DNA from: a bacterium
Lineage (GTDB): Bacteria > UBA8248
Assembly (NCBI GenBank): GCA_965219955.1
Contig: OZ244799.1
Location: forward strand, 2,240,001-2,304,000
Length of the DNA stretch: 64,000 nucleotides
Reading direction: 5' to 3'
Within the stretch, counting starts at the first letter, position 1; the number at the start of each line of letters is the position of its first letter. The translations under genes were made by a program, and so were the position numbers. Shown in pieces: positions 7,672-45,755 of this stretch. The notes beneath the pieces were generated by a model, which saw only the letters and a list, made by a program, of their open reading frames with translations, ran no database searches and had not been told where the DNA came from.

Positions 7672-8892
7672 TCAAGTCTTGTAGTCCGCGTTGAACCGGA
7701 CGTATTCCGCGCTCAAATCCGTCGTCCAGAACACGGCCTCCGCATCACCGACCCCCAGGCCCAGTTCGAGGCCGTATTCGGGCTGCTTGAGCAAGGGAGC
7801 CAGCGCCTCGGTCCAACCCGGTACGGGCGCGCCGTCACTCATCACCTGCACGTTCTCGATTCGGAGAGACATCTTCTCGGGCGCCACGTCCGCGCCGCTG
7901 TAGCCGGCCGCCGCGAACATCCGTCCCCAATTGGGCATCTCGCCATGAATGGCCGTCTTCACCAGCAGGCTCTCCGAAACCGACTTCGCGGCCAGATGCG
8001 CCTGCTCCTCGCTGGCTGCGCCCGAGATTTTCACCTCCACCACCTTGTTGACGCCCTCGCCGTCGCGAACGATGGCCAGAGCCAGTTCCTTGCATACCCG
8101 GTAAAGCGCTTCCTCGAACCGCGCCAGGGCTTCCGTCGATTCGAGCGCCACGCCGGATGCGCCCGTGGCGGCCAGAATCACCGTGTCGTTCGTGGAGGTG
8201 TCGCCGTCTATCGTCACGCAGTTGAACGTTTTCCGCACCACGGCCCGAAGAACGGCCTGGAGGTCGGCTTGCGCAACCACGGCGTCGGTGGCGACGTAGG
8301 CGAGCATGGTCGCCATGTCGGGGGCGATCATGCCGGCTCCCTTGGTGATGCCGCCGATGCGGTAGACGCCCTCTGGTTCTTTCACCTGAACGGCGTACTC
8401 CTTGGGCTTCGTATCGGTCGTCATGATGCCCACGGCAGCCTCGTGGCCGTTATCCGCGGAAAGACCGGAAACCAGATTCGCGATTTGGGCCTTCATGAGT
8501 TCAACCGGGAGTGGAGCGCCGATGAGTCCGGTGGAGGACATGGCGACCTGCGCTTCCGGGCAGTCGAGCGCATCCGCCACCTCGCCGCAAAGGCTCACGG
8601 CGTCTCGGTAGCCCTGCTCGCCCGTACAGGCGTTCGCGTTGCCGCTGTTGACGAGAAACGCCCTAAGAGGCGATTTTCCGACCCGCTCCCTGCACAGGGT
8701 GACGGGAGCGGCGCACATCTTGTTCCGGGTGTAGACGCCCGCGGCGGCGGCCGGGGGGTCGAAAGCGAGCAGCACCATATCCGGATTGCCGGACGGTTTG
8801 ATGCCCGCCGTCACCGAGGCGGCGCGGACTCCCGCGGCCGCGCAAACACCGCCCTCAATCGGCTGAATGTATTCTTTTTCACTCACAACCAA
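7672..8892 (-). CDS. argJ: Ornithine acetyltransferase / N-acetylglutamate synthase
   Basis: NSGNANACTG, IMTTDT, KGAGMIAPDMATML, DGDTSTND, DGEG. Confidence 0.96.
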   Translation of the reverse strand: MVVSEKEYIQPIEGGVCAAAGVRAASVTAGIKPSGNPDMVLLAFDPPAAAAGVYTRNKMCAAPVTLCRERVGKSPLRAFLVNSGNANACTGEQGYRDAVSLCGEVADALDCPEAQVAMSSTGLIGAPLPVELMKAQIANLVSGLSADNGHEAAVGIMTTDTKPKEYAVQVKEPEGVYRIGGITKGAGMIAPDMATMLAYVATDAVVAQADLQAVLRAVVRKTFNCVTIDGDTSTNDTVILAATGASGVALESTEALARFEEALYRVCKELALAIVRDGEGVNKVVEVKISGAASEEQAHLAAKSVSESLLVKTAIHGEMPNWGRMFAAAGYSGADVAPEKMSLRIENVQVMSDGAPVPGWTEALAPLLKQPEYGLELGLGVGDAEAVFWTTDLSAEYVRFNADYKT

Positions 8893-8908
8893 GACCCCTT
8901 CTTTTCGC

Positions 8909-9946
8909 TTACATCCAAAATCCCGGATGCAGGAGACCTTGCGTCTCGGGAAGCCCCAGCATCAGGTTCATGTTCTGCACCGCCGCCCCCGACGCGCCCT
9001 TCACCAGGTTGTCTATCGCCGCGACAATGATGAAGCGCGAGGTGCGCTCATCATACGTCAGGCCGATATCCACATAGTTCGAACCGGCCACCTGCGTCAC
9101 GTTGGGAAACGCGCCCTCGGGCATCAGGCGGATGAACGGCTCATCCGCATAGGCGTCGCGCAGCGCCCCCCGAACCGCCGAGGCGTCCGCGCCACCCTCG
9201 CCCTCCGTGTAGATGGTCGAGAGAATGCCCCGGGTCATGGGCGCCAGATGCGGGGTGAAGGAAACCTGCACGGCTTCGCCCAAGGCGACGGACAACTCCT
9301 GCTCGATTTCGGGCGTATGGCGATGGGTCCCCACGCCGTAGGCCTTGAAGCCCTCGTTCACCTCGCTGAACTGAATGCTCAGGTCCGCTTTTCTGCCCGC
9401 TCCCGAAACGCCAGATTTCGCATCCACGATGATGGAGCCGGGCTTGATGAGCCTCGCCCTCAAAAGCGGGGCCAGCGCCAGAATCGCTCCCGTGGGGTAG
9501 CAACCCGGGTTCGCGACGAGGCGCGCTTTTCTGACCTCCTCCCGGTAGAGTTCGGGCACCCCGTAGACGGCGTCCGCTATTCTTTCCGGCGAGGTATGCT
9601 CCGTCTTGTACCAGGCCTCATAAACGCCGAAATCCCGCAGGCGGTAATCGGCGGAGAAATCCACCACCCGGTGACCGGCATCCAGCAGGGAGGGCACGGT
9701 GTTCATCGCCACCCGGTGGGGCAGACAGCAGAACACGATGTCGGCTCCCTCGCAGACGGCGAGTTCGAACTTCACGAGCGTACCGCCATGCACGGAGACG
9801 AGAGCGGGAAACACCTCATCCACGCCCTTGCCGGCATAGGTCTCGGACGTGAGGGCGATCACCTCCACCCCCCCGTGGGACCCGAGAAGCCTCAACAATT
9901 CAAAACCCGTATATCCCGTGGCGCCCACCACGGCGATTTTCGGCAT
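8909..9946 (-). CDS. argC: N-acetyl-gamma-glutamyl-phosphate reductase
   Basis: GATGYTG, ANPGCYPT, SGVSGAG, HRHTPEI, DNLVKGASG. Confidence 0.97.
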   Translation of the reverse strand: MPKIAVVGATGYTGFELLRLLGSHGGVEVIALTSETYAGKGVDEVFPALVSVHGGTLVKFELAVCEGADIVFCCLPHRVAMNTVPSLLDAGHRVVDFSADYRLRDFGVYEAWYKTEHTSPERIADAVYGVPELYREEVRKARLVANPGCYPTGAILALAPLLRARLIKPGSIIVDAKSGVSGAGRKADLSIQFSEVNEGFKAYGVGTHRHTPEIEQELSVALGEAVQVSFTPHLAPMTRGILSTIYTEGEGGADASAVRGALRDAYADEPFIRLMPEGAFPNVTQVAGSNYVDIGLTYDERTSRFIIVAAIDNLVKGASGAAVQNMNLMLGLPETQGLLHPGFWM

Positions 9947-10027
9947 CTCCCTATCCTCCGGAATCTCAGGCGATTCGCATCATATCTTCATCAGGAGAAA
10001 CATCCACCGCAATCCATTATTTCGCAC

Positions 10028-10055
10028 AAAAAAAGGGGCCGGCAAAGCCAGCCCC
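10028..10055 (-). terminator. Intrinsic terminator after rplM-rpsI
   Basis: Minus strand GGGGCTGGC-TTT-GCCGGCCCC followed by a T7 run. Confidence 0.75.
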
Positions 10056-10075
10056 CGAATCGACCACCGATGTGG

Positions 10076-10471
10076 TTAGCGCTTGGAGAACTGGAAGCTC
10101 TTGCGCGCGCCTTTCAAGCCGTATTTTTTACGCTCTTTGACGCGGGAATCGCGCGTGATGAGACCCGCTTTCTTGAGAATCGTCCGAAACGCGGGGTCCA
10201 CGTCCAGCAGGGCTTTCGAAATGCCGTGGCGAACGGCGCCCGCCTGGCCGGTGAGTCCACCGCCCTTCACGGTGGCGCGAACGTCGTAGCTGCCCCACGT
10301 CTCGGTCAACTCGAAGGGCTGCTTGATCACCATGAGCGAGGTGTCGCGGAGGAAATACTCGTCCGCAGGCGTGTTGTTGACCAGAATCCTGCCGTCGCCG
10401 GGCTCTATCCATACGCGCGCGACGGCCGTCTTGCGCTTTCCCGTGGCGTAGTGCTTCGGTATCGTAGCCAT
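10076..10471 (-). CDS. rpsI: 30S ribosomal protein S9
   Basis: [37 protein letters not shown]. Confidence 0.98.
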
Positions 10472-10496
10472 GTCGATTTCAAAAACCTCTCGGAGT

Positions 10497-10946
10497 TCAG
10501 TCCAACTGAATCGGTTCGGGGCGTTGCGCCTCGTGGGGATGCTTGTCGCCCGCGTATACCTTGAGTTTTTGCAGCAGGGAGCGCCCCAGCTTGTTTTTCG
10601 GCAACATGCCCCGCACGGCGTGTTCTATCACACGCTCGGGATGCGTTTCCAGCATGCGCCCCGCGCTCACCTCCTTGAGATGCCCCGGGTAGCCGGAGTG
10701 GCGGTAATACTTTTTGTCCGAAAGCTTGCGGCCCGTGAGGACAATGCGCTCCGCGTTGATGACGACCACATATTCGCCGTTGTCGACATGGGGCGTCCAG
10801 TCGGGCTTGTGTTTCCCGCGCAGCAGCGTCGCCACGCGCGTGCTAAGACGCCCCAGCGTCTGATCCTTCGCATCCACCAGCACCCAGCCGCGCTGGGCAT
10901 TGGCCTTCTCTTTCGTGAGGCTGACAGTCTTCTGGTACATTCTCAT
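10497..10946 (-). CDS. rplM: 50S ribosomal protein L13
   Basis: [29 protein letters not shown]. Confidence 0.98.
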
Positions 10947-11146
10947 CGATTCTCTTCTCTCTTTCAGCTGACAAAGAATCTTCCCTGGAGAAGACGAAGG
11001 TGTATATAAACCCCAGATGGCCGGGGGATGTCAACCACCTCGCGCGGAATTTTCAAAGAATGCGGCGCATCACATATCTTGTTGTTTTTATTGATTTCAT
11101 GGATCAAATCGACTCAAGGCGAAATCTTCACTTGCAGGGGAGCCCG

Positions 11147-12445
11147 TCAAAGTCTGAACAAACGGCCGTTTTGACGGAAATCCCTGAAAGCGTTGCGCGT
11201 ATCCACGATGCAGTTCGCATGGGCGTGGATGAGCTTTGTATCCAGTGATTCGTGGTTCACAAGCACGATGACGCAGTCGTATTCACGCAGTGAGCCGGGA
11301 CTGATGGGCTGAGAATGCGCCCTGATCGGGAGAGCGTCGATTTCCGTAACATGGGGGTCCGAATAGCAAACGACCGCTCCGAGGCGCACCAGACGGAGCC
11401 AGACGTCGAGGGCGGGGCTCTCTCTGATGTCGGACACGTCCGCCTTGTAGGTCACTCCCGCCAGCAGGATTCTCGCTCCTTCAAGCGCTCTGCCGGTCGC
11501 GTTCAGAGCCCTGGCCGTGAGTTCCACAACGAACTGCGGCATCGAGTTGTTCACCTCACCGGCCCGTTCGATGAGCCTCGCCTCGAACCCCGCCTGCCGC
11601 GCCTTCCAGGACAAGTAGACGGAGTCCACGGGAATGCAATGCCCGCCGAGGCCCGGCCCCGGATAGAAGGGCATGAAGCCAAAAGGCTTCGTTTTCGCCG
11701 CCTCGATCACCTCCCAGACATCCAGGCCGAGGGCATGGCACATTTTCGCCACCTCGTTCACCAGGGCGATGTTGACGCTTCGAAAGGTGTTTTCCAGCAA
11801 CTTCACCATCTCGGCAACCCGGGGCGAGGTGACCCGCACGATCCGCTCGACGGCGCCTTCATACAGGGCGCAGGCGCACTCGGCGCACCCTGGCGTCACG
11901 CCGCCCACGACTTTCGGTATGTTTCTCGTGCCAAATCGCTCGTTTCCGGGGTCCACGCGCTCGGGCGAGAAAGCGAGATAGAAATCCTCGCCCACATCCC
12001 AGCCTTCTTTCGACAAAACGGGCAGAACGATTTCCTCCGTAGTCCCTGGATAGGAGGTGCTCTCGAGCACGTAGAGCTGCCCCCTTCGTCGATTCCGCCC
12101 GATGCTCTCCACTGCGGATTGTATGAAGGACAAATCCGGGTCCCGGGTCTTCCCCAACGGCGTGGGGACGCAAATGCTGACTGCATCGACCTCCGCAATC
12201 GCCCGGTCATCACAAGTGAACTCGAGCCGATCTGTGCTCAACCCCGCAGATAAGCTTTTGGGAGAAACATCCCCGATGTGGCTCTTCGCCGCTCGTAGAT
12301 CGCGAACACGGCGGCAGTCCGTGTCCAGCCCCACCACCCGGTAGCCCGCGCGCACAAACTCCAGCGCGAGCGGGAGCCCGGCGTATCCCAGGCCCATCAC
12401 GCATACGCGGACTTGTTTTTTGCGGATTTTTTCGATGAGTTGCAC
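11147..12445 (-). CDS. Nucleotide-sugar dehydrogenase (UDP-glucose/UDP-GlcNAc 6-dehydrogenase, WbpA/WecC family)
   Basis: GLGYAG, CVPTP, ESTSYPGTT, FSPERVDPG, KLLENTFR, GGHCIP. Confidence 0.92.
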   Translation of the reverse strand: MQLIEKIRKKQVRVCVMGLGYAGLPLALEFVRAGYRVVGLDTDCRRVRDLRAAKSHIGDVSPKSLSAGLSTDRLEFTCDDRAIAEVDAVSICVPTPLGKTRDPDLSFIQSAVESIGRNRRRGQLYVLESTSYPGTTEEIVLPVLSKEGWDVGEDFYLAFSPERVDPGNERFGTRNIPKVVGGVTPGCAECACALYEGAVERIVRVTSPRVAEMVKLLENTFRSVNIALVNEVAKMCHALGLDVWEVIEAAKTKPFGFMPFYPGPGLGGHCIPVDSVYLSWKARQAGFEARLIERAGEVNNSMPQFVVELTARALNATGRALEGARILLAGVTYKADVSDIRESPALDVWLRLVRLGAVVCYSDPHVTEIDALPIRAHSQPISPGSLREYDCVIVLVNHESLDTKLIHAHANCIVDTRNAFRDFRQNGRLFRL

Positions 12446-12577
12446 GGGACCCTCCAGAACAGAAAAAATGAGGGTCCTCTGAGAACGATTCTAGTATAGA
12501 ATAAGAACAAGTATTTCCGCATATCGTTTGATTCATTCAATGGCCATCACGGCGCTTACACAACGGGAGATTCGAGC

Positions 12578-13546
12578 ATGAAATGGTTGACCGGACTGGC
12601 TGCGGGCCTGCTCCTTTGGGCGGGCACAGCCCATGCGGCGGAAAAATGGAACATGCCGACGGCGTACGGGAACGCCATCTACCACACGCAAAACGCAAAA
12701 CTCTTCGCCGAGGCGGTTGGCGTATGCACCGGCGGGAAACTCGATATCGTGGTGCATGGAGGCGGTTCCCTCATCAAGGGCGGCGAGATAAAGCGCGCCG
12801 TACAAACCGGGAAGGTGCCCATCGGCGAGCGGCTGCTGAGCGCCCACCAGAACGAAAACGCCGTCTTCGGATTCGACTCCGTGCCGCTACTGGCCACGTC
12901 CTTCGAGGCGTCCGAGAAGCTCTGGCAGGCAGCTAAAGGCCGGCTGACGAAGATTCTCGCCGCGCAGAACCTCGTATTGCTCTACTCCGTCCCCTGGCCG
13001 CCTCAGGGAATGTATTTGAAGCGCGCGATCGGCGGCGTCGCCGACATGCGCGGGATCAAGTTTCGCGCCTACAACGACGCGACGGCCCGTTTCGCCGCTC
13101 TCGCCGGAATGCCCTCGGTGCATATCGAACTCGTGGAACTCGACCGGGCGCTTGCGAGCGGCAGGGTGGAGGCCTTCATCACTTCGAGCGCGACCGGTTA
13201 TTACCACAAGCTCTGGAAGCGCATGAGCCATTTCTACGATTTGCGAGCCTGGGTGCCGCGCAACTACGTGTTCGCGGGCAAGCGCGCCTTCGAGGCGCTC
13301 GACGCACACGCCCAAAACTGCCTGCGCTCCTCTGCGCTATTGGCCGAAGCGGCGGGAACGGCGCGGGCGCGCGAGTTGACCGGCTTTTACCTCGAACAAC
13401 TCGCCGCAGGCGGCATGAGCGTGCAGAAGCCGGGTGAGCGGCTCGCCGCCGATCTCAAGAAAATCGGCGAAACCATGTCCGCCGAATGGAGCAAGGCCGC
13501 AGGCGCCGAGGGTGCCGCGATCATCAAAGCCTTCAGGGGGAAGTAA
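12578..13546 (+). CDS. TRAP transporter solute-binding protein (DctP family)
   Basis: Signal peptide (AHA cleavage), WNMPTAY, IGERLLS, PWPPQG, GIKFRAY. Confidence 0.88.
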   Translation: MKWLTGLAAGLLLWAGTAHAAEKWNMPTAYGNAIYHTQNAKLFAEAVGVCTGGKLDIVVHGGGSLIKGGEIKRAVQTGKVPIGERLLSAHQNENAVFGFDSVPLLATSFEASEKLWQAAKGRLTKILAAQNLVLLYSVPWPPQGMYLKRAIGGVADMRGIKFRAYNDATARFAALAGMPSVHIELVELDRALASGRVEAFITSSATGYYHKLWKRMSHFYDLRAWVPRNYVFAGKRAFEALDAHAQNCLRSSALLAEAAGTARARELTGFYLEQLAAGGMSVQKPGERLAADLKKIGETMSAEWSKAAGAEGAAIIKAFRGK

Positions 13547-13590
13547 AACTTCAGGATGCGGTCTTTTACAGCTTTATCGAGGATGAAGTA

Positions 13591-13845
13591 ATGCAACTCA
13601 ACATCAAAGATGCCGACACCCACGCGCTGGCGAAGAGGCTCGCGAGTCTCACCGGCGAATCCATGGCCAAGGCCGTCAAGCGCGCCATACAGGAGAAGCT
13701 GGCGCAGGTGGAGAAGATGCGGGGCGGGCCCCCGCTCGCCGATGAACTGGATCGCATCGCCCTGTATTGCGCCAGTCTGCCAAGGCGTGACGGGCGAAGC
13801 AGCGATGAGATCATCGGGTATGACGAAAGCGGCTTGCCCGCTTAA
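13591..13845 (+). CDS. vapB: VapB-type antitoxin (Rv0623/PSK transcription factor family)
   Basis: MQLNIKD..LAKRLA.LTGES...AV..A and C-terminal DEIIGYDESGLP; ATG at 13591. Confidence 0.85.
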   Translation: MQLNIKDADTHALAKRLASLTGESMAKAVKRAIQEKLAQVEKMRGGPPLADELDRIALYCASLPRRDGRSSDEIIGYDESGLPA

Positions 13846-13929
13846 TCATCACCGCATTTCGGCGCTTTCAAGGGTAGAAGATGTTCAGAAACGCCTTTGA
13901 TGTTTCCCACACCCAAGGCGCGCGGCGCG

Positions 13930-14559
13930 TTAGACGTTCATGACGCGGACGAGGGGCGCGCTTTCGTGCAGATCAATCACGTTCAGGGCCGCAAAATCCT
14001 GCTCCAGCCGGAAAAAGCTATTGAGCGGAGCGCCCAGCGCATCGCAGAGAATCACCCGGTTCACCGCCGCATGGGCGCAAATGATGACGTTTTTTTCTTT
14101 CTCCCGGGCGCAGATACCGCGAAACGCGGGCAAGACGCGCGCGGCGAGTTCCGCCACGCACTCCCCGCCGCCCGGCGGCTTGGAATGGACAAAATTCTCG
14201 TAATGCTCGTCCAGGCGCTCGGGTTCTTTTTCCGTGAGGCTTGCGTGCGTCTCCCCCTCCCAATCGCCCAGGTGAAGCTCGGCGATATCGGGAACGACCA
14301 CGGGCTCGAGCCCCAACCCCATCGCTTCGGATAGAATCTCCGCCGTCCTCACGGAGCGGGTGAGCGAACTGGAATAAAGGGCCGTCTCACTATCCAACAG
14401 CCAACCCCGGACGCGCGCCGCCGCGTCCCGAACCTGCGCCTCGCCATCAGGAAGGAGCGGCGCGTCGGTGCTGCCGTAGAAAAACCCCTCTTTCGAGCCC
14501 TCCGCCGCGCCGTGCCTGAGCAGTAGAACGCGCGTGGTGGTTTCGGCCTTGCGCGGCAT
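13930..14559 (-). CDS. Histidine phosphatase family protein (CobC/GpmB-like)
   Basis: LLRHG, SSLTRS..TA, ELHLGDWEG, PGGGE, H..VNR; start uncertain (14559 or 14592). Confidence 0.85.
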   Translation of the reverse strand: MPRKAETTTRVLLLRHGAAEGSKEGFFYGSTDAPLLPDGEAQVRDAAARVRGWLLDSETALYSSSLTRSVRTAEILSEAMGLGLEPVVVPDIAELHLGDWEGETHASLTEKEPERLDEHYENFVHSKPPGGGECVAELAARVLPAFRGICAREKEKNVIICAHAAVNRVILCDALGAPLNSFFRLEQDFAALNVIDLHESAPLVRVMNV

Positions 14560-36432: not shown

Positions 36433-37473
36433 TCAGGCGGAAGTCTGTTCGTCACCACCCGGCTTTCGGGCGAGCATGAAATACAGAGTCGTCGAGATGC
36501 CCTTCCTTCCCCCCTCGACAGTGGCATCGGCGCCGACGTTGAAGATATCGCTCACGCGGCGACTGCCCCGGGCGGAGAGGCGGAGGAACTCCAGGATGCC
36601 GAGCACCTGGTTCGTCACACGACGTCCGAGCGGGGAACGCGCCATCGCTCGAATCGAGAACCCTTTTGATTCGAGCGGTGAGTACCAGGGCGTTTCCGGG
36701 TCCCCCTCCAGCGCGCGGTCGTTCGTCTCCAGGAGTTCGAAGCCGGCTGCCACCATGCTCGCGCAGCACTCTTCCGCCGTGATCAGATCTGGAATACCGT
36801 AGCCGAGCTGGATGCCGTGCTTGATTCGCCGATGTTCTTCGTTACCGGGATCGTAGCGATCGGTCATCACGCATTCATCGGCCACCAAAAGACCGCCGGG
36901 CTTCAGGACCCGAAACAACTCCGTGAAGACACGCGTCCGGTCGGGAGCATGGCAGGTCGACCCGATAGCGTAGATCCGATCATAGGTGGCATCGCCTGCC
37001 GGCAGGTCCATGAAGTCGGCCACCATCACCTCGCACTGCTTCGAGAGACCCGCTGCCTCGTTGTAACGCCGGGCCTTTTCGACCTGTTCGGGGACGACGT
37101 TGGCCCCGACGATCCGCGCTCCGGAGTAGCGCGCGATTTCGCGCATGGGCCCCCCGACCCCGCAACCGACATCGAAGACCAGCATCCCCGGCTTCAGCCC
37201 CAAGCGGTCGGAGACGTACCGTTCGTGCCGCCGGATCGCGTCGGCGAACGCCTCGCCCTTCTCGAAGGGACACATGTGGTGCGACCGTCCCCAGGCGATC
37301 TCGTACAGGCCGGCGCCCAGGGCATAGTGGCACCTGGCCAGAGTAACGTAGTTCTGCTTTCGGGCGGACACGGCCTCATCGTCGTTCTTCATGAAGAGGT
37401 CGATGTACAATTCGATCTTTTCGGATTTACTGACGTTGTCCGGCAGGTGTGACGATCGCGTCATGGCATTCAT
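36433..37473 (-). CDS. Sterol C24-methyltransferase-like SAM methyltransferase, divergent copy
   Basis: YEIAWGRSHH, DVGCGVGGPMREIA, YAIGSTCHAP, MTDRYDP..EEHRRIK..IQLGYGIP, PWY.PL, LYFMLARKP; start probably ATG 37473. Confidence 0.85.
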   Translation of the reverse strand: MNAMTRSSHLPDNVSKSEKIELYIDLFMKNDDEAVSARKQNYVTLARCHYALGAGLYEIAWGRSHHMCPFEKGEAFADAIRRHERYVSDRLGLKPGMLVFDVGCGVGGPMREIARYSGARIVGANVVPEQVEKARRYNEAAGLSKQCEVMVADFMDLPAGDATYDRIYAIGSTCHAPDRTRVFTELFRVLKPGGLLVADECVMTDRYDPGNEEHRRIKHGIQLGYGIPDLITAEECCASMVAAGFELLETNDRALEGDPETPWYSPLESKGFSIRAMARSPLGRRVTNQVLGILEFLRLSARGSRRVSDIFNVGADATVEGGRKGISTTLYFMLARKPGGDEQTSA

Positions 37474-37803
37474 TACACTCGATAGAATATGCCTGTTTAC
37501 TGTGTTTGGTGAGGTCTTGAACTTCGGGAGCGACCCGATTATCGGGTCAACCCGCAGACTATGTCGCAACGAATATGTTGGCTGTGACAATGAAATTTGT
37601 CAAGGAAAATGGATTCCGTCGAACCCTCCCGCCTTGGTCGGCTCCGACACCGGAATGACGGCGGGGCAGTTCGTCTCAACCGATGAGGAAGGGTTTGCTG
37701 CAAACGAGGAAAACATCGGCGCGCAAGCGCGCCTACTCGGGATGAGGAAGGTATTACGGGCATGGGCGGCGAATGCGCCACAGGCCATACCCCCTTGAGG
37801 ACA

Positions 37804-40023: not shown

Positions 40024-40242
40024 TCACTCCTTCTTTCGGGGGCCTCGCTCGCGCGGGTCGCGCTCGGTGCGCATTCCATGAATTGCGCCCGATCCGGCGC
40101 TGCCTTTGTTCGCTGCGGCAGCTTCGGCTGTTTCTTTCGCCCGCCTGCGCGCGCGTTTGGCCGCACGGCGCATCGCGATCTCTGCACCAGCAAAATCAGG
40201 GTCTCGGGGCTTTTGCGTCGAATTCCGCTTCCTTGATTTCAT
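40024..40242 (-). CDS. Small protein coupled to the zeta-toxin-like ATPase (putative antitoxin/partner)
   Basis: ATGA overlap with upstream stop; DPDFAGAEIAMRRAAKRAR helix. Confidence 0.6.
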   Translation of the reverse strand: MKSRKRNSTQKPRDPDFAGAEIAMRRAAKRARRRAKETAEAAAANKGSAGSGAIHGMRTERDPRERGPRKKE

Positions 40243-40769
40243 CCCCTCTCCTCTTCCTTCAACAACTCCGGTTCAACACCTGCATTATCATACAAAGCCC
40301 ACCCGTCGACCAAGCCCCGATAGATTCGCTCGAAGTTGCGCCGGCCGGCGTCGAATCGCCTGCGAATCACTTCCTCGGGCACGTCGTGGCCTCCTTCGAG
40401 AACGCGCTGCGCGACGCGCGTGATCGCCACCTCGGGCGTCGGCAGTTGCAGGAAGAACAGCTTCACCCGGTAGTTCTGCTCCCGCCAGCGTGGAATATGG
40501 CGCGCATAATTCCGCCCGCTCAACGTCGTCTCGAAGGCGAAACTTTCTCCCCTAAGAACGTGTTCACAGATTTGCTCCAACATCCGCCTGCCGGACTGAA
40601 AACCGACCAGATGAGGATCGGAAGGGTCCAAGCCCGCCGCGATGTCGTCGGCGTTGATGAAAAGCGGGCAGTCCGCCTCGTTCGGCAGAAATTCCGTGGC
40701 GAACGTCGTCTTGCCCGCGCCGTTCGGCCCGGCGATGATGAATATCCGCTTCTCGCTCGCATCGGCCAA
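40239..40769 (-). CDS. Zeta-toxin-like P-loop ATPase/kinase (COG4185 type)
   Basis: IIAGPNGAGKTT, FINAD, FAFETTLSG, RVAQRV..GGHDVP, YDN; start uncertain. Confidence 0.85.
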   Translation of the reverse strand: MADASEKRIFIIAGPNGAGKTTFATEFLPNEADCPLFINADDIAAGLDPSDPHLVGFQSGRRMLEQICEHVLRGESFAFETTLSGRNYARHIPRWREQNYRVKLFFLQLPTPEVAITRVAQRVLEGGHDVPEEVIRRRFDAGRRNFERIYRGLVDGWALYDNAGVEPELLKEEERG

Positions 40770-40973
40770 TGCCGGCCTGCTCCTTTGCAAGTATCTCCAT
40801 ACTCCGCGTCAATTTCCTAAACTCATTGTCCCCGCGCCCCGCCCTGCACGCAAGGCCGGGCCGAAGCGCACCGCATCGCCCTGTGATATAAACAAGTTCC
40901 TGTGACGCGGATATTTCCATTGGAACGCGAGGGATTCCTAGGCTGTCCCCGATAAGACACGAACGAGGCGACG

Positions 40974-41456
40974 ATGAAAAAAACGACTCTCTTTCTGTGC
41001 GCGCTCGTCCTGATGACGCTCCCGTACGCGCCCGCGCCGGCCCGGGGGGCCGATCCTCCAAGACGCCTCAAGGCGCGCGTCACCAAGGTCTACGACGGGG
41101 CGAGCTTTCAACTCGGCGGCGGGCTGCGCTCTGCCCTGATCGGCGTGTCCGCGCCCGCTGCCGGCGCGCCGGGCGCGGAACAGGCGCATGCGTACCTGAA
41201 ACGCCTCATCGAGAACCGGACGGTGACTCTCGAAATCGACGAAAAACCCGTGGACGCTTCGGGACAGACGCTTTATTACGTCTTCCTCGAAGAAGGCGGC
41301 CTCGTGAACGCCCTCGTGGTGCTGCGGGGCCTGGGCCGCGCCCTCGTGAAACACCCCAACGTGCGCTACCGCAAGGAGCTGATAGAAGCCGAAAACCTCG
41401 CCAGGCGATACCGCCGCGGCGTGTGGGGCGACGAGCGCGACCCGATAGACAGGTAA
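40974..41456 (+). CDS. Exported thermonuclease (SNase)-fold protein, catalytic residues substituted
   Basis: Signal peptide; RVTKVYDG, LIGV.AP, VN..LV..GL, AE..AR..RRGVW. Confidence 0.78.
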   Translation: MKKTTLFLCALVLMTLPYAPAPARGADPPRRLKARVTKVYDGASFQLGGGLRSALIGVSAPAAGAPGAEQAHAYLKRLIENRTVTLEIDEKPVDASGQTLYYVFLEEGGLVNALVVLRGLGRALVKHPNVRYRKELIEAENLARRYRRGVWGDERDPIDR

Positions 41457-41543: not shown

Positions 41544-42011
41544 GGGGTTGTTGAAAAAGTCCCTTATGCGTCTCCCAGCAACCGCCAACTCCTCATTCCT
41601 CACCCTGAGTAGCCGCCGAAGAGCCTGTCCTGAGCTTGTCGAAGGGCGGCGTATCGAAGGGCGAGGGAAGTCGAATGCCTCGCGCCGGGCGAGAACAAAC
41701 GCTCATTCATCAATCGCGTTTGACCTTCGATATGCGGCTCCGCCGCTACTCAGGATGAGGAAGATGGGGGCGGAGCCTGTCCCGAGCGAAGTCGAGGGGC
41801 CGCTACTCAGGATGAGGCGGTGTGGTTTTGGTTCGTCATTCCGGCGAAAGCCGGAATCCATTTGCGGATGCGGGTGAGTACACAGCGGTGTTTCATTCCC
41901 CCCGATGCGCGGGAACCCTGACGAAAGGCAAAAGGCGTAAAAATGGATTCCGGCTTCCGCCGGAATGACGGCGGTGGTCAATTCCGAGCGATGAGGATTT
42001 TCAGCAGCCCC
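41544..42011. mobile_element. TIR-bounded element with nested REP pairs
   Basis: Left GGGGTTGTTGAAAAAGTCC; degenerate right ATTTTCAGCAGCCCC; CCTGAGTAGC/GCTACTCAGG pair; GTCATTCCGGCGAAAGCCGGAATCCA pair at 41835-41969. Confidence 0.7.
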
Positions 42012-42048: not shown

Positions 42049-43050
42049 TTATCCCGGTTTGCGCGCCTTGTGGTAGTACATCGGCGTAAATATCCCCAGA
42101 CGCCCCGCCGCCACGAGGCTGTCGGCCGCAATGTTCAAAACTTCCTGTACCGCAAGCGACCCGGTGGGCACCGCGCGCACGCCTTCGAGGACGCGCAGCG
42201 CCGCCGTGGTGATTTTCCGGCCAAGCCGCGTTCTCGGCAGACCCCTCAGCGTCAGGCCGCCCCCCTCCAGCGACCGGTACCACGGCGTCCGCGGGTCGGC
42301 GTCCGGGGCGCGGTCGCGCGCCTCGATGTGTTCGAAACCAGCCGCCCGCAAGCCCTCGTTGACGTCTGAGAAGGAGGCGATTCCCGGCAGCGCATTGCCG
42401 AATTCGATACGCTGCATGACTTCTCGATGCGCCGGGTTTTCGCCGTCATACGCAGGAGTCACGCACCAGTCGTAGCCCGCGAAGACAGCCCCCGGCCGCA
42501 ATACCCGGAATATCTCGGCATAGGCGTCCGTCTTGTCCGGCGCATGAGCCAGGGCCTCGACATGGTAGGCCGCGTCGAAGCTCCCCTCTTCCGCCGGAAT
42601 GTTCATGAAATCGCCGTGCAAAACGCTGCACAGATTCTCCAGGCCGGCTTCTTTGTTGTACGCGGCGCACTTCTCGACCTGGTACGCGCTGATGTTGAGG
42701 CCGACGATCGACGCGCCGAACTTCCTGGCGAGCGAGCGTTGGGGGCCGCCTACGCCGCAGCCGACGTCCAGCACCTTCATGCCCGGCCCCAGGCCGATTC
42801 CCTCGCCCAGAAAATACTGATGCGCGGCGAGGGCTTCCTCGAAGGACGCGCCGCGCACCCCGGGCGCGAAGTGAAACGACTGGCCCCATCCGTACTCGTA
42901 AAAGTCGGTGATCAGATCGTAGAACGTATTGATCATGGCGGCGTATTCTTCCTTGCCGCGCTCCTGGCTGCTGCGGAACTTCGAGAGCGTTTCGGCCATC
43001 TCCTCCGGCGGAATCGCCCTGGAAATGGGATTATGAAAGTCAGCCGCCAT
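42049..43050 (-). CDS. Sterol C24-methyltransferase (ERG6/SMT family)
   Basis: Canonical SMT regions: FYDLITDFYEYGWGQSFHFA, VLDVGCGVGGP, YHVEALAHAP, YDW, IEFGNALP, GIFTPMYYHKARKP; ATG 43050 overlaps the Rieske stop. Confidence 0.9.
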   Translation of the reverse strand: MAADFHNPISRAIPPEEMAETLSKFRSSQERGKEEYAAMINTFYDLITDFYEYGWGQSFHFAPGVRGASFEEALAAHQYFLGEGIGLGPGMKVLDVGCGVGGPQRSLARKFGASIVGLNISAYQVEKCAAYNKEAGLENLCSVLHGDFMNIPAEEGSFDAAYHVEALAHAPDKTDAYAEIFRVLRPGAVFAGYDWCVTPAYDGENPAHREVMQRIEFGNALPGIASFSDVNEGLRAAGFEHIEARDRAPDADPRTPWYRSLEGGGLTLRGLPRTRLGRKITTAALRVLEGVRAVPTGSLAVQEVLNIAADSLVAAGRLGIFTPMYYHKARKPG

Positions 43051-44095
43051 TGCCGGTCTCCCTGTCCGGGTCATCCGCGGGGCCTTCAGGGTAGAACTGC
43101 CGGTACCACTCGCGCATCCTGCCCAGGGGGCCCTCGCCCGCAACCCCCGAAGGGCGTTGCCGGTAAATTTTATTTTTCCAGATATCCACGTCCTGCCGCC
43201 ATTGCGAGATCCAGTTCCCGACCACGTAGGAAATCAGAATCCGCGGAATTTTCCGGGCGGCGAACCACCGGAAGGATACCCGTTGCCTGAGCGCCTCGAG
43301 GGGGGTGTGCGTCTGGAACATCGTGATTTCGCCGATTTTCGGTATTTCGAATTCGAACTTCACGATACTGCCGGGACCGAGAAAGGTGATCAGCGCCCGC
43401 GCTCTCGTCTTCTCGTACACCCGGCCCCTTATCTCGAGCGCCGGGTCGTCCTGGAAATAGGCGACGTGCTCAAGCGTGTCATCGAGAAACCACGAAGGCT
43501 CGTGGATAATTCTTATCCAGGGCAATTGTATGTTGGTCCAGGGGATGCGCATTGTGCCGTGGAGCTCTGAAAAATGATGAAAGTCGACGCTGTTCTCGGC
43601 GAATTCGATGATGTGCATGTCCACTTCGCCCGCGTCGTAGCGGCCGCGGTAGACGAGCTCGCGCTCGTCGATCTTCGGCTCCTGCGGCAGCCGGTACGGC
43701 GCCTGAGCACCCTGGCGCGCCGAGTGGTAAATCATCACCATGCCGTAGTAGTCGATCGCCTCCCAATGCCGGTGGACGAGAGGCCGGTCTTTGGCGTGGG
43801 GCGGGTCGCATACTCTGCCGTCGCCGTCCAGCTGCCAGCCGTGAAACGGACATTGCAGCCGGTCCCCCTTTACCTCGCCGTGGGCCAGGTTGGCGCCCAG
43901 GTGCGGGCAGAATGCGTCCACGGCCGCAATCCGGCCGCTCGTCTTGCTGCGAAAAAGGGCGATCTGCTCCCCCACGCACTGAACGTGCTTCGCTTCTCCC
44001 GCCTTGATTTCCCCCGACGCCGCCACCCTGTACCAGCCGTCCGGATAAGGCGGCGGGTAGGTGCGTTCCCGGTAGCGCGTGAGAGCATCGGACAT
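43040..44095 (-). CDS. Rieske non-heme iron oxygenase, Neverland/DAF-36 (cholesterol 7-desaturase)-like
   Basis: PPPYPDGWY, Rieske CPH...CPFH, E-x3-D-x2-H-x4-H (ENSVDFHHFSELH), QDVDIWKNKIY, GP...MREWYRQFY. Confidence 0.82.
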   Translation of the reverse strand: MSDALTRYRERTYPPPYPDGWYRVAASGEIKAGEAKHVQCVGEQIALFRSKTSGRIAAVDAFCPHLGANLAHGEVKGDRLQCPFHGWQLDGDGRVCDPPHAKDRPLVHRHWEAIDYYGMVMIYHSARQGAQAPYRLPQEPKIDERELVYRGRYDAGEVDMHIIEFAENSVDFHHFSELHGTMRIPWTNIQLPWIRIIHEPSWFLDDTLEHVAYFQDDPALEIRGRVYEKTRARALITFLGPGSIVKFEFEIPKIGEITMFQTHTPLEALRQRVSFRWFAARKIPRILISYVVGNWISQWRQDVDIWKNKIYRQRPSGVAGEGPLGRMREWYRQFYPEGPADDPDRETGNGG

Positions 44096-44288: not shown

Positions 44289-44675
44289 GGGGGTGTTGAG
44301 AAAGTCCCTCGAAGAGGAAGTGACGCCTGCGCCTCCGCCCGGTTTCGGGTTTTGGCCGTCATTCCGGCGAAAGCCGGAATCCATTTTCGCCTTTGCCTTT
44401 TCGCCTCTTCGCCCGGACGTTTTTACGCCTGGGCGGGGAGGATCGGAATCGAACACAAAAGCAAAAGGCGAATTCTCTGGATTCTGCATCCGGACGCCGC
44501 GCAACAACAAGGTCGTGGCCACCCCGCCCGGTAAAAAGTCAAAATGGATTCCGGCTTTCGCCGGAATGACGGCTTCGTGGTGAACCGCATCAGCAGTCTC
44601 CGTAACAACGCCCGAATCCGGGCGCACACGAAACGCATCGTCAATTCCAACCGAGAAGATTTTTCAACACCCCCC
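44289..44675. mobile_element. TIR-bounded element with a perfect 26-bp REP inverted pair
   Basis: Left GGGGGTGTTGAGAAAGTCC; right GATTTTTCAACACCCCC; REP pair at 44358-44383 and 44545-44570. Confidence 0.72.
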
Positions 44676-44960
44676 TTCGGTCGGGATTGACATCAGATTG
44701 ACATTCAAAACCCCTAAACCCCCACTCTCCGAATGGGCCACATCCGTCTCTCACCAGGCTGCTCCTTGCTCAATCGATCCCGAAGTGTCAGGGTGAGAGG
44801 CGATACGGCCCCATCGTTCAGCGCGGGGCGAGACCGGCAGGGAACGTCCGAAAAACACCGGTTTCTGCGAGGGCGTACACGGGCGCTGTCCCGCTATGCC
44901 TGGCCGCGCGGGCGAGCGGCGCGGGGATGCGGGACCGGAGGGGTATTCAGGGAGGCGGCC

Positions 44961-45755
44961 ATGGCGGGCTTCGAGGAGGTTTCGATCGACAAACTGTTCC
45001 GCATCGACGGCGACAGCGCGCTGGTCACCGGGGCGGGCGGCGGGCTGGGACGAATCGCCGCGCTCGCGCTTGCCGGCGCGGGGGCGCATGTCGCGGTCAC
45101 CGATATCGATGCGGCGGCGGCCGAGCGGGTGACGGCGGAGATCAGGGACGCCGGCGGGGTCGCCGAGTCCTGGCGGCTCGATGTCGCCGACCGCAAGCGC
45201 ATCGACGCCGTGATCGACCAGGCGGCCGAGCGGTTCGGCGGGCTTCACATCCTGATCAACAACGCCGGCATCATCCGGCCCGGGCCGGCCGAGTCGCTTC
45301 CCGACGAGGACTGGGACGAGGTGGTCGAGGTCAACATGACCGCCCCGTTCGTCTGCGCGCGCCGGGCGGCGAAGCACATGCTGGCCCGGGGGGAGGGGCG
45401 AATCGTCTCGATCGCCTCGATCATGGGGTTCCGGGCGAACGCGATGGTTCCCCACATCCCCTACCAGGCGACCAAGGGGGCGCTCGTCAACATGACCCGC
45501 TCGCTCGCCGTCGAATGGGCGGGCCGGGGGGTCCGGGTGAACGCCATCGCGCCGACCTTCTTCTACACCGAACTCGGCGCCGACCTGCGCCGGCGCCGGC
45601 CCGAGCTCGTGGACGAGATCGAGGCGCGCACGCCGCTCGGCCGGCTCGGCGAGCCCGGGGAAATCGCCGGCGGCATCCTCTACCTCGCGAGCCCCGCCTC
45701 CTCGATGGTGACCGGCCACACGCTCGCGATCGACGGCGGCTGGCTCTCGACCTAG
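44961..45755 (+). CDS. Classical short-chain dehydrogenase/reductase
   Basis: TGAGGGLG, NNAG, YQATK, VNAIAP; ATG 44961 with GGAGG. Confidence 0.93.
   Translation: MAGFEEVSIDKLFRIDGDSALVTGAGGGLGRIAALALAGAGAHVAVTDIDAAAAERVTAEIRDAGGVAESWRLDVADRKRIDAVIDQAAERFGGLHILINNAGIIRPGPAESLPDEDWDEVVEVNMTAPFVCARRAAKHMLARGEGRIVSIASIMGFRANAMVPHIPYQATKGALVNMTRSLAVEWAGRGVRVNAIAPTFFYTELGADLRRRRPELVDEIEARTPLGRLGEPGEIAGGILYLASPASSMVTGHTLAIDGGWLST

What the first reader, a model, noticed from the sequence alone, without database searches (positions are those of the whole stretch)
42049..44095. Translationally coupled Neverland-like Rieske oxygenase + sterol C24-methyltransferase: candidate bacterial sterol-remodelling operon
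Seen: the Rieske gene stop (43040-42) overlaps the SMT ATG (43050). The SMT keeps YEYGWGQSFHF and the other ERG6/SMT regions. The Rieske protein has PPPYPDGWY and an E-x3-D-x2-H-x4-H iron site, and no N-terminal TM. Known: these motifs match animal/ciliate Neverland/DAF-36 cholesterol 7-desaturases better than actinobacterial KshA (D-x3-D). SMTs need a side-chain olefin such as Delta24(25). Bacterial SMT homologues have been reported, but I know of no described Rieske-SMT operon. Inference: the cell modifies scavenged or host sterols. One route is Delta7 desaturation plus C24 alkylation to ergosterol-like products. The other is that the Rieske enzyme makes the side-chain double bond the SMT needs, which would explain the coupling. 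No sterol cyclase gene is in this window.
Basis: partly seen in the sequence, partly recalled or inferred. Interest (0 to 1): 0.9.

Follow-up and report, generated by a model that had tools for sequence, protein, structure and literature searches.

The report
Conserved bacterial Neverland-like oxygenase–sterol methyltransferase pair
A bacterium that lacks the genes to make sterols carries a tightly coupled two-gene unit, an animal-type sterol desaturase relative plus a sterol side-chain methylase, that many bacterial phyla share and that probably reshapes sterols taken from a host such as a sponge.

Summary
On the minus strand, a 351-aa Rieske/KshA_C oxygenase (43040-44095) overlaps by 11 nt the ATG of a 333-aa sterol methyltransferase (42049-43050) that carries the YEYGWG signature.

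The adjacency is widely conserved. In 48 of 80 related loci from 7 phyla an SMT lies immediately beside the Rieske gene on the same strand, in two gene orders. The two proteins co-diverge (r=0.92). 45 of 50 genomes holding this Rieske family also hold an SMT.

The Rieske protein is not SdmA (57.5 bits against a cut-off of 600). It is not close to KshA. It groups with eukaryotic Neverland-like proteins, though deep-node support is uneven.

The single-contig 4.28-Mb genome has no oxidosqualene cyclase, hopene cyclase, squalene epoxidase or SdmA. It does have three SMTs, two KshA-fold Rieske genes and an ERG4/24-type reductase.

Best reading: a mobile sterol-tailoring module acting on exogenous sterols. 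C7 desaturation is inferred only from homology; side-chain desaturation or C-25 hydroxylation remains open. Bacterial SMTs and SdmA-type clusters are published. I found this Nvd-type pair in no paper.

The parts
43040..44095 (-). Rieske_A: 351-aa Rieske [2Fe-2S] non-haem-iron oxygenase with a KshA-type catalytic domain, in the Neverland-like clade
   Evidence: ORF. Pfam Rieske 78.3 bits and KshA_C 66.7 bits. Cluster and iron ligands are invariant in 19 homologues. Tree placement.
42049..43050 (-). SMT_A: 333-aa sterol C24-methyltransferase homologue
   Evidence: Pfam Methyltransf_11 74.4 bits and Sterol_MT_C 72.6 bits. YEYGWG at residues 51-56. The start is shared with homologues.
43040..43050 (-). 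11-nt overlap of the Rieske stop codon and the SMT start codon (ATGGCGGCTGA)
   Evidence: Sequence. An overlap of the same length occurs in 13 of the 19 loci with Rieske->SMT order.
43058..43062 (-). GGGAG, a Shine-Dalgarno-like site 7 nt before the SMT ATG, inside the Rieske gene
   Evidence: Read from the sequence. Its function is inferred.
41824..42011 (.). Copy of a dispersed repeat just downstream of the SMT gene. It holds an inverted pair (41834-41863 / 41941-41970), and a terminator-like hairpin lies inside it.
   Evidence: the repeat finder D1, D2, D4, I4. Terminator-like site at 41966-41947. The core occurs 285 times in the genome.
44289..44674 (.). Second copy of the same dispersed repeat, upstream of the Rieske gene. 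The module is therefore bracketed by direct copies.
   Evidence: the repeat finder D1, D2, D4, D5, I1.
36433..37590 (-). SMT_B: a second SMT paralogue in the window, 41% identical to SMT_A, with a divergent Region I (YEIAWG). It is not part of the operon.
   Evidence: Pfam Sterol_MT_C 58.1 bits. Alignment. blastp.
44958..45755 (+). Divergently oriented short-chain dehydrogenase. It is a neighbour only and not part of the conserved module.
   Evidence: Pfam adh_short_C2 211 bits. It is kept at this position only in the closest relative, L004 (98%). Distant SDR matches (28-37%) lie about 4-5 kb away in L008, L016 and L057.

Best explanation
Window 42049-44095 (minus strand) is a two-gene operon that tailors sterols.

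Gene 1 is a soluble, KshA-fold Rieske non-haem-iron oxygenase of the Neverland/DAF-36-like lineage. Gene 2 is a SAM-dependent sterol C24-methyltransferase, and its start codon lies inside the last 11 nt of gene 1. The two are therefore made together (shown: anatomy; inferred: translational coupling).

The pair is a conserved module. It has spread and co-diverged as a unit across at least seven bacterial phyla (shown).

This genome lacks oxidosqualene cyclase, hopene cyclase, squalene epoxidase and SdmA. The module therefore most likely acts on sterols obtained from outside the cell, for example from a sponge host or from sterol-making neighbours (inferred from gene content and from sponge-metagenome occurrence).

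By homology, the Rieske enzyme removes two hydrogens from the sterol. C7(8) desaturation of a Delta5 sterol to a Delta5,7 diene is the most likely reaction. It would use electrons from an unlinked ferredoxin or reductase. The SMT alkylates C24 of a side-chain olefin. Both activities are inferred and neither was tested.

My odds: the pair is a sterol-tailoring module, 0.9. The substrates in this organism are exogenous, 0.6. The Rieske regiochemistry is C7, about 0.5.
For: Anatomy: ORFs, the 11-nt overlap and the internal GGGAG.

Domains and ligands: Rieske, KshA_C, Methyltransf_11 and Sterol_MT_C. C63/H65/C82/H85 and E167/D171/H174/H179 are invariant, and D302 is nearly invariant, in 19 homologues. 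YEYGWG is the Region I signature of 24-SMTs (PMC6997595, passage).

Conservation of the pair. Of the 80 best loci, from 142 confirmed relatives:
- 19 have Rieske->SMT, 13 of them with an overlap of the same 11-nt length.
- 29 have SMT->Rieske with gaps of 66-172 nt.
- 2 have one gene between.
- 1 has an SMT 4.5 kb away on the other strand.
- 29 have none within 6 kb.
Phyla with immediate adjacency are Thermodesulfobacteriota, Pseudomonadota, Acidobacteriota, Gemmatimonadota, Latescibacterota, Chloroflexota and Myxococcota. SMT is the only neighbour family kept broadly (53 of 80 loci). Pairwise distances of the two proteins correlate at r=0.92 across 46 pairs of genes, and 0 of 2000 permutations reach that value. 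Sterol_MT_C is present in 45 of 50 holder genomes against 0 of 14 controls.

Lineage. The closest eukaryote-type homologues are 40-51% identical and carry N-terminal membrane segments. Named members include Naegleria, Physarum, Corallochytrium, Ectocarpus, Rotaria and Mortierellaceae. Named metazoan Nvd proteins are 30-34% identical. The bacterial clade nests among the eukaryote sequences in all three trees. Naegleria is reported to convert cholesterol to Delta5,7 sterols, 'most probably' by such a Rieske enzyme (PMC8172173, passage).

Gene content of this genome: no TIGR03463, PF13243, PF08491 or SdmA-level hit. It has 3 SMTs, 2 KshA_C Rieske genes and one ERG4/ERG24-family gene.

Other holders without a cyclase. 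Of 32 searched genomes with an immediately adjacent pair, 23 lack an OSC-class hit. These include records titled 'chromosome' whose contig length equals the genome size, such as L015/G015, L030/G027 and L031/G028.

Habitat. Contigs 96-98% identical that bridge the gene junction occur in sponge-metagenome runs of 3 studies. An RNA-library contig (42781-43162, 96% identical) also bridges it. That is a weak hint of expression only.

Precedent. Capsaspora converts exogenous cholesterol to ergosterol with a Rieske C7-desaturase, a C22-desaturase and an SMT that are co-induced (PMC4967820, section 3.3 read).
Against: No activity was measured, so the regiochemistry rests on homology of 30-51% identity.

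The union with metazoan Nvd is not robust. Support is 99 in FastTree (215 rows), below 80 in IQ-TREE C20 (62 rows) and 93 in LG+G4 (34 rows). Forcing the bacterial clade together with the KshA-like group costs 21.5 lnL, but p-AU is 0.055, which is not a formal rejection. Genuine KshA, Tetrahymena DES7 and DAF-36 were not in the trees.

An SMT needs a side-chain olefin, and C7 desaturation does not supply one. Tight coupling of the two genes is therefore not explained by that chemistry.

The closest relative (95% identical pair) has a full SE-OSC/P450/ERG24/SdmA-like/SdmB-like cluster. OSC-class hits occur in 23 of 50 holder genomes, so the module also serves de novo producers.

The genome is rated 94.25% complete with 5.02% contamination, and a missing replicon cannot be excluded.

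No reductase or ferredoxin gene is linked to the pair. No sigma-70-like promoter was found upstream on the minus strand.
Confidence: 0.6

Rival explanations
1. The Rieske enzyme works on the side chain, not on ring B. It abstracts hydrogen at C-25 or C-24 and either desaturates (Delta24(25) or Delta25) or hydroxylates C-25. This would create or prime the olefin that the co-translated SMT needs, so that saturated host sterols such as cholesterol become SMT substrates.
For: The gene coupling is tight and widely conserved. It occurs in two independent gene orders, and the genes co-diverge. That pattern fits two consecutive steps on one substrate.

SMTs need an isolated side-chain double bond (PMC10070321 introduction, passage). 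Many holders lack a cyclase, so they would meet host sterols.

No enzyme is known for Delta24(25) desaturation of cholesterol, although Capsaspora must perform it (PMC4967820, section 3.3).

Enhygromyxa salina has an orthologue (L034, 52% identical). It makes 25-hydroxycholesterol, and its C-25 hydroxylase is unidentified (PMC10202945, passage with the Fig. 2 legend).
Against: Every characterised member recalled or read for this lineage (Nvd, DAF-36, Tetrahymena DES7) is a C7 desaturase (passages).

De novo producers with the pair already have Delta24 sterols and would not need such a step.

The Nannocystaceae-like genomes keep the Rieske gene without any SMT: 5 of 5 searched have none. The enzyme therefore has a role that does not depend on methylation.

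No sequence feature that predicts regiochemistry was found.
Confidence: 0.25
2. The organism makes sterols itself and the module is simply a late step of a de novo pathway, as in its closest relative. The cyclase block would be missing from the assembly, or carried on an unassembled replicon.
For: The closest relative G004 holds SMT, an SE-OSC fusion, P450, ERG4/24, an SdmA-like Rieske gene, an SdmB-like gene and GPP34-P450 on one contig. 23 of 50 holder genomes have an OSC-class hit. The genome is rated 94.25% complete. Two SQS_PSY genes show that squalene or phytoene chemistry is present.
Against: The assembly is one 4.28-Mb contig. HMM searches found no OSC, SHC, SE or SdmA. blastn found no trace of most of the relative's core block (4127-14323 of L095), which holds the SE-OSC, the cluster P450 and the ERG4/24, SdmA-like and SdmB-like genes, while the flanking GPP34-P450 gene is present in a contiguous locus. 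Several other chromosome-level holders also lack OSC.
Confidence: 0.15
3. The pair acts on a non-sterol lipid or isoprenoid, and the sterol names are family labels only.
For: Neither enzyme was assayed. The genome has no sterol core pathway. SMT_A also scores weakly against cyclopropane-fatty-acid and other methyltransferase models.
Against: The Sterol_MT_C domain and the YEYGWG Region I are specific to SMTs. 20 of 24 metagenomic bacterial SMT homologues that were tested alkylated desmosterol or 24-methylenecholesterol (8 of 10 and 12 of 14; PMC10070321, passages). In Binatia the Rieske homologue lies 4-7 kb from the SE-OSC and SMT genes. Family relatives with known substrates all act on steroids.
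Confidence: 0.05

Closest known systems
Neverland / DAF-36 / Tetrahymena DES7 (Rieske cholesterol 7-desaturases of animals and protists)
   Same: Rieske plus KshA_C architecture. E-N-x2-D-x2-H-x4-H iron motif and PPxYP(D/N)GW motif. 30-34% identity to named metazoan Nvd and 40-51% to protist-type members. These enzymes are used by sterol auxotrophs to remodel dietary sterols (PMC8172173, passage).
   Different: The bacterial protein has no N-terminal membrane segment. Its C-terminus does not end in W, whereas the 8 of 8 eukaryote-type sequences I printed do. It is operonic with an SMT. Its activity is untested. The clade union is supported unevenly.
Bacterial sterol methyltransferases and sponge-symbiont sterol gene clusters (Brown et al. 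2023, PMC10070321; Melophlus msb cluster, PMC7074536)
   Same: SMT homologues in uncultured, often sponge-associated bacteria. Some holders lack other sterol genes, for example the Chlamydiae MAG. SMT genes sit in sterol clusters that contain a Rieske gene (passages). The relative G004 has exactly such a cluster, with an SE-OSC fusion.
   Different: The Rieske gene named in those clusters is the SdmA type (C4 demethylation). Here it is a Neverland-like paralogue, paired one-to-one with the SMT and often standing apart from any cluster. The words Rieske and desaturase do not occur in the main text of PMC10070321. Its supplementary gene tables could not be read.
SdmA/SdmB bacterial C4 sterol demethylase
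   Same: A Rieske oxygenase acting on sterols in bacteria, found in the same kinds of genomes.
   Different: Rieske_A scores 57.5 bits on NF052579 (cut-off 600), over residues 20-174 only. True homologues in Nannocystaceae score 398-413 bits and are separate genes from the Rieske_A orthologues. No SdmB-type partner is conserved beside Rieske_A.
KshA/KshB 3-ketosteroid 9alpha-hydroxylase of actinobacteria
   Same: Same fold family. The best solved-structure match is 4qdf, E=4.8e-28 over residues 13-337.
   Different: KshA has D-x3-D where Rieske_A has E-x3-D. The score is lower than to Nvd (101 against 161 bits). KshA-family actinobacterial homologues fall outside the clade in all three trees. 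No steroid-degradation genes lie nearby.
Capsaspora cholesterol-to-ergosterol salvage route, and C. elegans DAF-36 plus STRM-1
   Same: A Rieske C7-desaturase and an SMT-family methyltransferase act together on exogenous cholesterol (PMC4967820, section 3.3; PMC6997595, passages).
   Different: These are eukaryotic, unlinked genes. STRM-1 methylates C4 and lacks the Region I aromatics that SMT_A keeps.

Membership tests
Rieske non-haem-iron oxygenase, KshA-type catalytic domain | Rieske [2Fe-2S] ligands C-x-H ... C-x2-H | tested here: met
   C63-P-H65 and C82-P-F-H85. H65, C82 and H85 are invariant and C63 nearly invariant in 19 homologues. Pfam Rieske 78.3 bits against a cut-off of 20.3.
Rieske non-haem-iron oxygenase, KshA-type catalytic domain | Mononuclear iron site (D/E)-x3-D-x2-H-x4-H plus a distal Asp, and the KshA_C domain | tested here: met
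   E167, D171, H174 and H179 are invariant and D302 nearly invariant. They align with the KshA site. KshA_C 66.7 bits against a cut-off of 23.3.
Neverland/DAF-36 cholesterol 7-desaturase | Groups with named Nvd proteins to the exclusion of KshA-like and SdmA proteins | tested here: inconclusive
   Union supported at 99 (FastTree, 215 rows), below 80 (IQ-TREE C20, 62 rows) and 93 (LG+G4, 34 rows). The AU test of the rival grouping gave p=0.055.
Neverland/DAF-36 cholesterol 7-desaturase | N-terminal membrane anchor (as seen in the eukaryotic members I printed) | tested here: not met
   Rieske_A begins 13 residues before the conserved YPPPYPDGW. The eukaryote-type homologues carry 60-360 hydrophobic residues before it.
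Neverland/DAF-36 cholesterol 7-desaturase | Converts cholesterol to 7-dehydrocholesterol | not testable with these tools
   This needs an enzyme assay.
SdmA (4beta-methylsterol monooxygenase) | Reaches the NCBIfam NF052579 level over the full length | tested here: not met
   57.5 bits against a cut-off of 600, over residues 20-174 only. Nannocystaceae SdmA homologues score 398-413 bits.
KshA (3-ketosteroid 9alpha-hydroxylase) | Close similarity to solved KshA and the D-x3-D iron motif | tested here: not met
   101 bits to 4qdf, with E in place of the first D. Genuine KshA was not available for the trees.
Sterol C24-methyltransferase (ERG6/SMT1 type) | Sterol_MT_C domain plus a class I SAM-binding domain | tested here: met
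   Sterol_MT_C 72.6 bits against a cut-off of 21.7. Methyltransf_11 74.4 bits. LDVGCGVGGP is present.
Sterol C24-methyltransferase (ERG6/SMT1 type) | Region I aromatic signature Y81-E-Y-G-W-G86 (definition from PMC6997595) | tested here: met
   YEYGWG at residues 51-56. Y51, E52 and W55 are invariant in 19 homologues, G54 and G56 nearly invariant. SMT_C has FEYGWG and SMT_B has YEIAWG.
Sterol C24-methyltransferase (ERG6/SMT1 type) | Methylates a Delta24 sterol with SAM | not testable with these tools
   This needs an enzyme assay. No SMT structure is in the PDB copy; the best match was 3bus at 85 bits.

The most novel reading that the evidence does not exclude
The Rieske partner is the long-missing sterol side-chain desaturase (Delta24(25) or Delta25) or C-25 oxygenase. 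Coupled one-to-one with an SMT, it would let cyclase-less symbiotic bacteria alkylate saturated host sterols such as cholesterol. Part of the unusual 24-alkyl sterol pool of sponges, including precursors of disputed sterane biomarkers, could then be made by bacteria from host sterols without de novo synthesis.
Probability: 0.2. Interest if true: 0.9.

Novelty: new variant of a known kind. Interest (0 to 1): 0.65.

Why it matters
Side-chain alkylated steranes are used as fossils of early animals and algae, and bacterial SMTs already complicate that reading (PMC10070321). This finding adds three points.

- SMTs in many phyla travel with a dedicated Neverland-like oxygenase.
- The pair is common in genomes that cannot cyclise squalene. 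23 of 32 searched genomes with an adjacent pair lack an OSC-class hit.
- Near-identical copies occur in sponge metagenomes of three studies.

Together these point to bacterial remodelling of host sterols, a process not covered by the de novo clusters described so far. The finding also supplies a soluble bacterial relative of Neverland/DAF-36, a family that had no solved structure in the PDB copy I searched. It gives a concrete candidate for two unassigned reactions: Delta24 desaturation of cholesterol (PMC4967820) and C-25 hydroxylation in Enhygromyxa (PMC10202945).

Tried and rejected
SMT-Rieske fusion proteins. Many representatives of 518-745 aa carry the Rieske part at their C-terminus. Pfam on 10 of them found only Rieske and KshA_C, with no methyltransferase domain. 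The extensions look like membrane segments. There is no Rosetta-stone fusion.

Physical complex of Rieske_A with SMT_A. Complex prediction returned 'no answer' (score 0.00, mark 0.32). This is no evidence either way.

Getting a genuine KshA for the trees. tblastn against plasmids gave only unnamed Rieske genes. The Rhodococcus and Mycobacterium homologues I fetched score only 137.9 and 94.3 bits to solved KshA, so they are KshA-family relatives and not KshA.

Other conserved neighbours. Clustering of 3418 ORFs from the 80 loci found only the SMT. The other clusters reaching 15-77 loci are ORFs in other frames over the two genes, judged by their coordinates. The Nannocystaceae-like loci and the close-clade loci without an SMT share no neighbour.

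The SDR at 44958-45755 as a third member. It is kept at that position only in L004.

Promoter. No sigma-70-like site was found on the minus strand upstream of the Rieske gene.

The two P450s of the genome as CYP51. The stand-alone one matches CYP51 structures no better than others. The GPP34-fused one reaches only 68.6 bits to CYP51.

AU test under the C20 mixture model. It did not finish. The reduced LG+G4 test gave p=0.055.

Literature. Ten searches were run. Those aimed at a bacterial Nvd-type Rieske paired with an SMT were, and they found none. Supplementary tables of PMC10070321 and PMC10202945 list cluster genes and E. salina homologues. They could not be read and may already hold this gene.

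The taxon of the genome was not determined. The closest record is titled only 'bacterium'.


Full report
WHAT IS THERE

Both genes lie on the minus strand. Rieske_A is 43040..44095 (351 aa). SMT_A is 42049..43050 (333 aa from the ATG; the open frame runs on to a TTG at 43143). The Rieske TGA (43042-43040) lies inside the SMT's fourth codon, so the genes overlap by 11 nt. GGGAG sits 7 nt before the ATG. The ATG is the shared start. In an alignment of 19 SMTs from such pairs M1 is nearly invariant, and tblastn matches begin at residue 1 in 17 of the 19 loci with a downstream SMT.

Pfam finds Rieske (78.3 bits) and KshA_C (66.7) in gene 1. It finds Methyltransf_11 (74.4) and Sterol_MT_C (72.6) in gene 2. 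Rieske_A keeps the cluster ligands (C63, H65, C82, H85) and the iron site E167-x3-D171-x2-H174-x4-H179 with D302. KshA aligns with D in place of E167. SMT_A has YEYGWG at 51-56, which is the Region I signature of 24-SMTs (PMC6997595, passage). It missed a second SMT paralogue in the window, SMT_B at 36433..37590, with a divergent Region I (YEIAWG).

WHICH RIESKE FAMILY

The protein is not SdmA. It scores 57.5 bits on NF052579 (cut-off 600), over residues 20-174 only. Enhygromyxa, Plesiocystis and Nannocystis each have a separate gene scoring 398-413 bits.

The best solved structure is KshA (4qdf, 101 bits, E=4.8e-28). No Neverland-type structure is in the PDB copy.

A scan of 1.84 billion representative proteins gave 10265 hits at E<=1e-3 and 271 at E<=1e-30. 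Representatives at 40-51% identity have long hydrophobic N-termini. Profile searches attach names to this material. The group at 30-34% identity includes insect, fish, amphibian, lancelet and hemichordate 'cholesterol 7-desaturase nvd'. The nearer group includes Naegleria, Physarum, Corallochytrium, Ectocarpus, Rotaria, a foraminifer and Mortierellaceae.

I built three trees.
- FastTree, 215 rows: 2 own proteins, 85 locus ORFs, 5 outgroup rows, 13 named eukaryote rows, and 110 of the 150 representatives. I dropped representatives shorter than 330 aa. Rooted on three SdmA homologues, it puts KshA-family actinobacterial proteins outside. It joins the named Nvd clade (46 rows) with a 157-row clade at support 99. 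A 90-row bacterial clade holding Rieske_A is nested in the 157-row clade.
- IQ-TREE C20, 62 rows: the bacterial clade stays together (99) and nested among eukaryote sequences (90, 92, 86). The join with metazoan Nvd is left unresolved, below 80.
- LG+G4, 34 rows: the join is supported at 93. Forcing the bacterial clade together with the KshA-like group costs 21.5 lnL, with p-AU 0.055.

'Neverland-like' is therefore the best description, but the deep node is not secure. Genuine KshA, DES7 and DAF-36 were not available to me.

IS THE PAIRING REAL?

A scan of one genome per prokaryote species found 142 confirmed relatives, and the best 80 loci were kept. I located SMT homologues in them by tblastn. 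The counts are:
- 19 loci have Rieske->SMT with gaps of -88 to +180 nt, 13 of them with an overlap of the same 11-nt length.
- 29 have SMT->Rieske with gaps of 66-172 nt.
- 2 have one gene between.
- 1 has an SMT 4.5 kb away on the other strand.
- 29 have none within 6 kb. Of these, L022 and L046 have under 420 nt of downstream sequence.

Immediate adjacency occurs in Thermodesulfobacteriota (including Dadabacteria), Alpha- and Gammaproteobacteria, Acidobacteriota, Gemmatimonadota, Latescibacterota, Chloroflexota and Myxococcota.

Clustering all 3418 ORFs of the loci shows that SMT (53 of 80 loci) is the only broadly kept neighbour. Across 46 pairs of genes, the p-distances of the two proteins correlate at r=0.92, and 0 of 2000 permutations reach that value. 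Within the two gene orders r is 0.84 and 0.95. Shared ancestry alone would give some correlation. Here, however, proteins from different phyla are 70-77% identical, so the unit has moved horizontally.

At genome level, 45 of the 50 holder genomes I searched have Sterol_MT_C. The figure for control genomes is 0 of 14. The five genomes without it are Enhygromyxa, Plesiocystis, Nannocystis and two relatives. In two Binatia genomes without direct adjacency the Rieske gene lies 4-7 kb from an SE-OSC gene and several SMTs. Decayed copies exist. In L062 the Rieske gene is split into three ORFs beside an intact SMT. In L013 only SMT residues 4-173 match.

DE NOVO SYNTHESIS OR SCAVENGING?

The window's genome is a single 4,283,615-bp contig, rated 94.25% complete. 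It has no hit to the OSC model, to SQHop_cyclase_C or to squalene epoxidase. It has no SdmA-level hit.

It does have the following:
- Three SMTs.
- Two KshA_C Rieske genes.
- One ERG4/ERG24-family reductase about 10 kb before the window.
- Two P450s that are not CYP51-like.
- Two SQS_PSY genes.

A second locus (L092) holds Rieske_B, SMT_C and a GPP34-P450 fusion.

The closest relative G004 has a Rieske/SMT pair that is 95-97% identical to the window's. On one contig it carries SMT, an SE-OSC fusion, P450, ERG4/24, an SdmA-like Rieske gene, an SdmB-like gene, GPP34-P450 and SMT. blastn finds no match in our genome to positions 4127-14323 of that contig, which hold most of that core block, though the GPP34-P450 gene matches at 80% nucleotide and 73% protein identity.

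Among the 50 genomes searched, 23 have an OSC-class hit (474-752 bits), 9 have only weaker hits (60-252 bits; SHC-like at about 220-250 in eight of them), and 18 have none. Of the 32 searched genomes with an immediately adjacent pair, 9 have an OSC-class hit and 23 do not. The 23 include records titled 'chromosome' whose contig length equals the genome size.

The module therefore serves both sterol makers and bacteria that cannot cyclise squalene.

HABITAT AND EXPRESSION

Words of the stretch occur in sponge-metagenome runs of three studies (shares 0.28-0.42). They also occur in runs labelled marine and coral metagenome. Laid contigs from three sponge runs are 96-98% identical and bridge the gene junction. 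One contig of an RNA library (42781-43162, 14 differences) also bridges it. That contig is only a weak hint of transcription, because contigs cannot prove a transcript and DNA can be present in such libraries.

MECHANISM

Shown: a competent-looking Rieske oxygenase and a competent-looking 24-SMT, co-encoded with overlapping codons, and conserved as a unit.

Inferred: the Rieske enzyme takes electrons from an unlinked reductase or ferredoxin and desaturates a sterol. C7(8) is the default by homology. Naegleria, a member of the nearest eukaryote group, makes Delta5,7 sterols from cholesterol, 'most probably' with such an enzyme (PMC8172173). Rieske C7-desaturases are typical tools of sterol auxotrophs. 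Capsaspora co-induces a Rieske C7-desaturase, a C22-desaturase and an SMT to turn exogenous cholesterol into ergosterol (PMC4967820).

C7 chemistry does not explain why the gene is welded to an SMT. An SMT needs a side-chain olefin, and that paper states that no enzyme is known for the required Delta24(25) desaturation. Enhygromyxa salina, which has an orthologue but no SMT, makes 25-hydroxycholesterol by an unidentified enzyme (PMC10202945). Side-chain attack at C-24 or C-25 is therefore a serious rival, which I put at 0.25.

KNOWN OR NEW

Bacterial SMTs are published. So are sponge-symbiont clusters with an SE-OSC fusion, an SdmA-type Rieske gene and an SMT (PMC10070321; PMC7074536). My searches found no paper on a Neverland-type Rieske gene paired with an SMT in bacteria. 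The supplements of the two Welander-lab papers could not be read and may list the gene.

VERDICT

A real, conserved and mobile two-gene module. It is a new variant within known bacterial sterol tailoring, and its oxygenase chemistry is open and testable.

Noticed in passing
window 41824-42011 and 44289-44674; genome-wide: The operon is bracketed by direct copies of a composite dispersed repeat with a palindromic core. The core occurs 285 times in the 4.28-Mb genome at up to 3 mismatches. Four of its five copies in the window flank this module. The closest relative's locus ends in the same kind of repeat.
   Followed up: partly
G000:C1:527101-529170 (L092:15102-17171, +): A 689-aa fusion of a GPP34 (Golgi phosphoprotein 3-like) domain with a cytochrome P450. 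It lies next to SMT_C and near Rieske_B. It is 73% identical to a gene in the relative's sterol cluster. It is only weakly CYP51-like.
   Followed up: partly
G000:C1:519569-520627 (L092:7570-8628, -): Rieske_B is a second KshA_C Rieske protein, 25% identical to Rieske_A. It forms its own clade near KshA-family proteins. Its homologues lie within 1-4 kb of the Rieske_A homologue in L013, L026 and L027.
   Followed up: partly
window 36433-37590 (-): SMT_B is a third type of SMT in this genome, with an unusual Region I (YEIAWGRSHH instead of YEYGWGQSFH). It stands between an HD-domain gene and an isochorismatase-family gene.
   Followed up: partly
G000:C1:2229514-2230566 (L097:8434-9570, +), about 10 kb before the window: A stand-alone ERG4/ERG24-family sterol reductase homologue (115 bits). 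It is only 30% identical to the relative's cluster reductase and sits among housekeeping genes.
   Followed up: partly
L095:6033-9602 (-), relative G004: A 1189-aa squalene epoxidase-oxidosqualene cyclase fusion. Open frames of 1144-1273 aa around the OSC hits of 16 other holder genomes suggest the same fusion. It is already described as MsbE in PMC7074536.
   Followed up: partly
L062:5971-7056 and L013:7055-7564: Decayed copies of the module. In L062 the Rieske gene is broken into three ORF pieces beside an intact SMT. In L013 only the first half of the SMT matches, and the genome search reports a TAG inside a Sterol_MT_C match in that genome.
   Followed up: no
proteins P0124, P0130, P0161 and others: Eukaryote-type relatives of 680-745 aa carry about 340 residues of multi-pass hydrophobic sequence before the Rieske domain. 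Pfam finds no domain in that part.
   Followed up: partly
window 40239-40790 (-) and 40974-41456 (+): A Zeta_toxin/AAA_33 kinase-like ORF and a secreted staphylococcal-nuclease-like ORF lie just downstream of the module.
   Followed up: no
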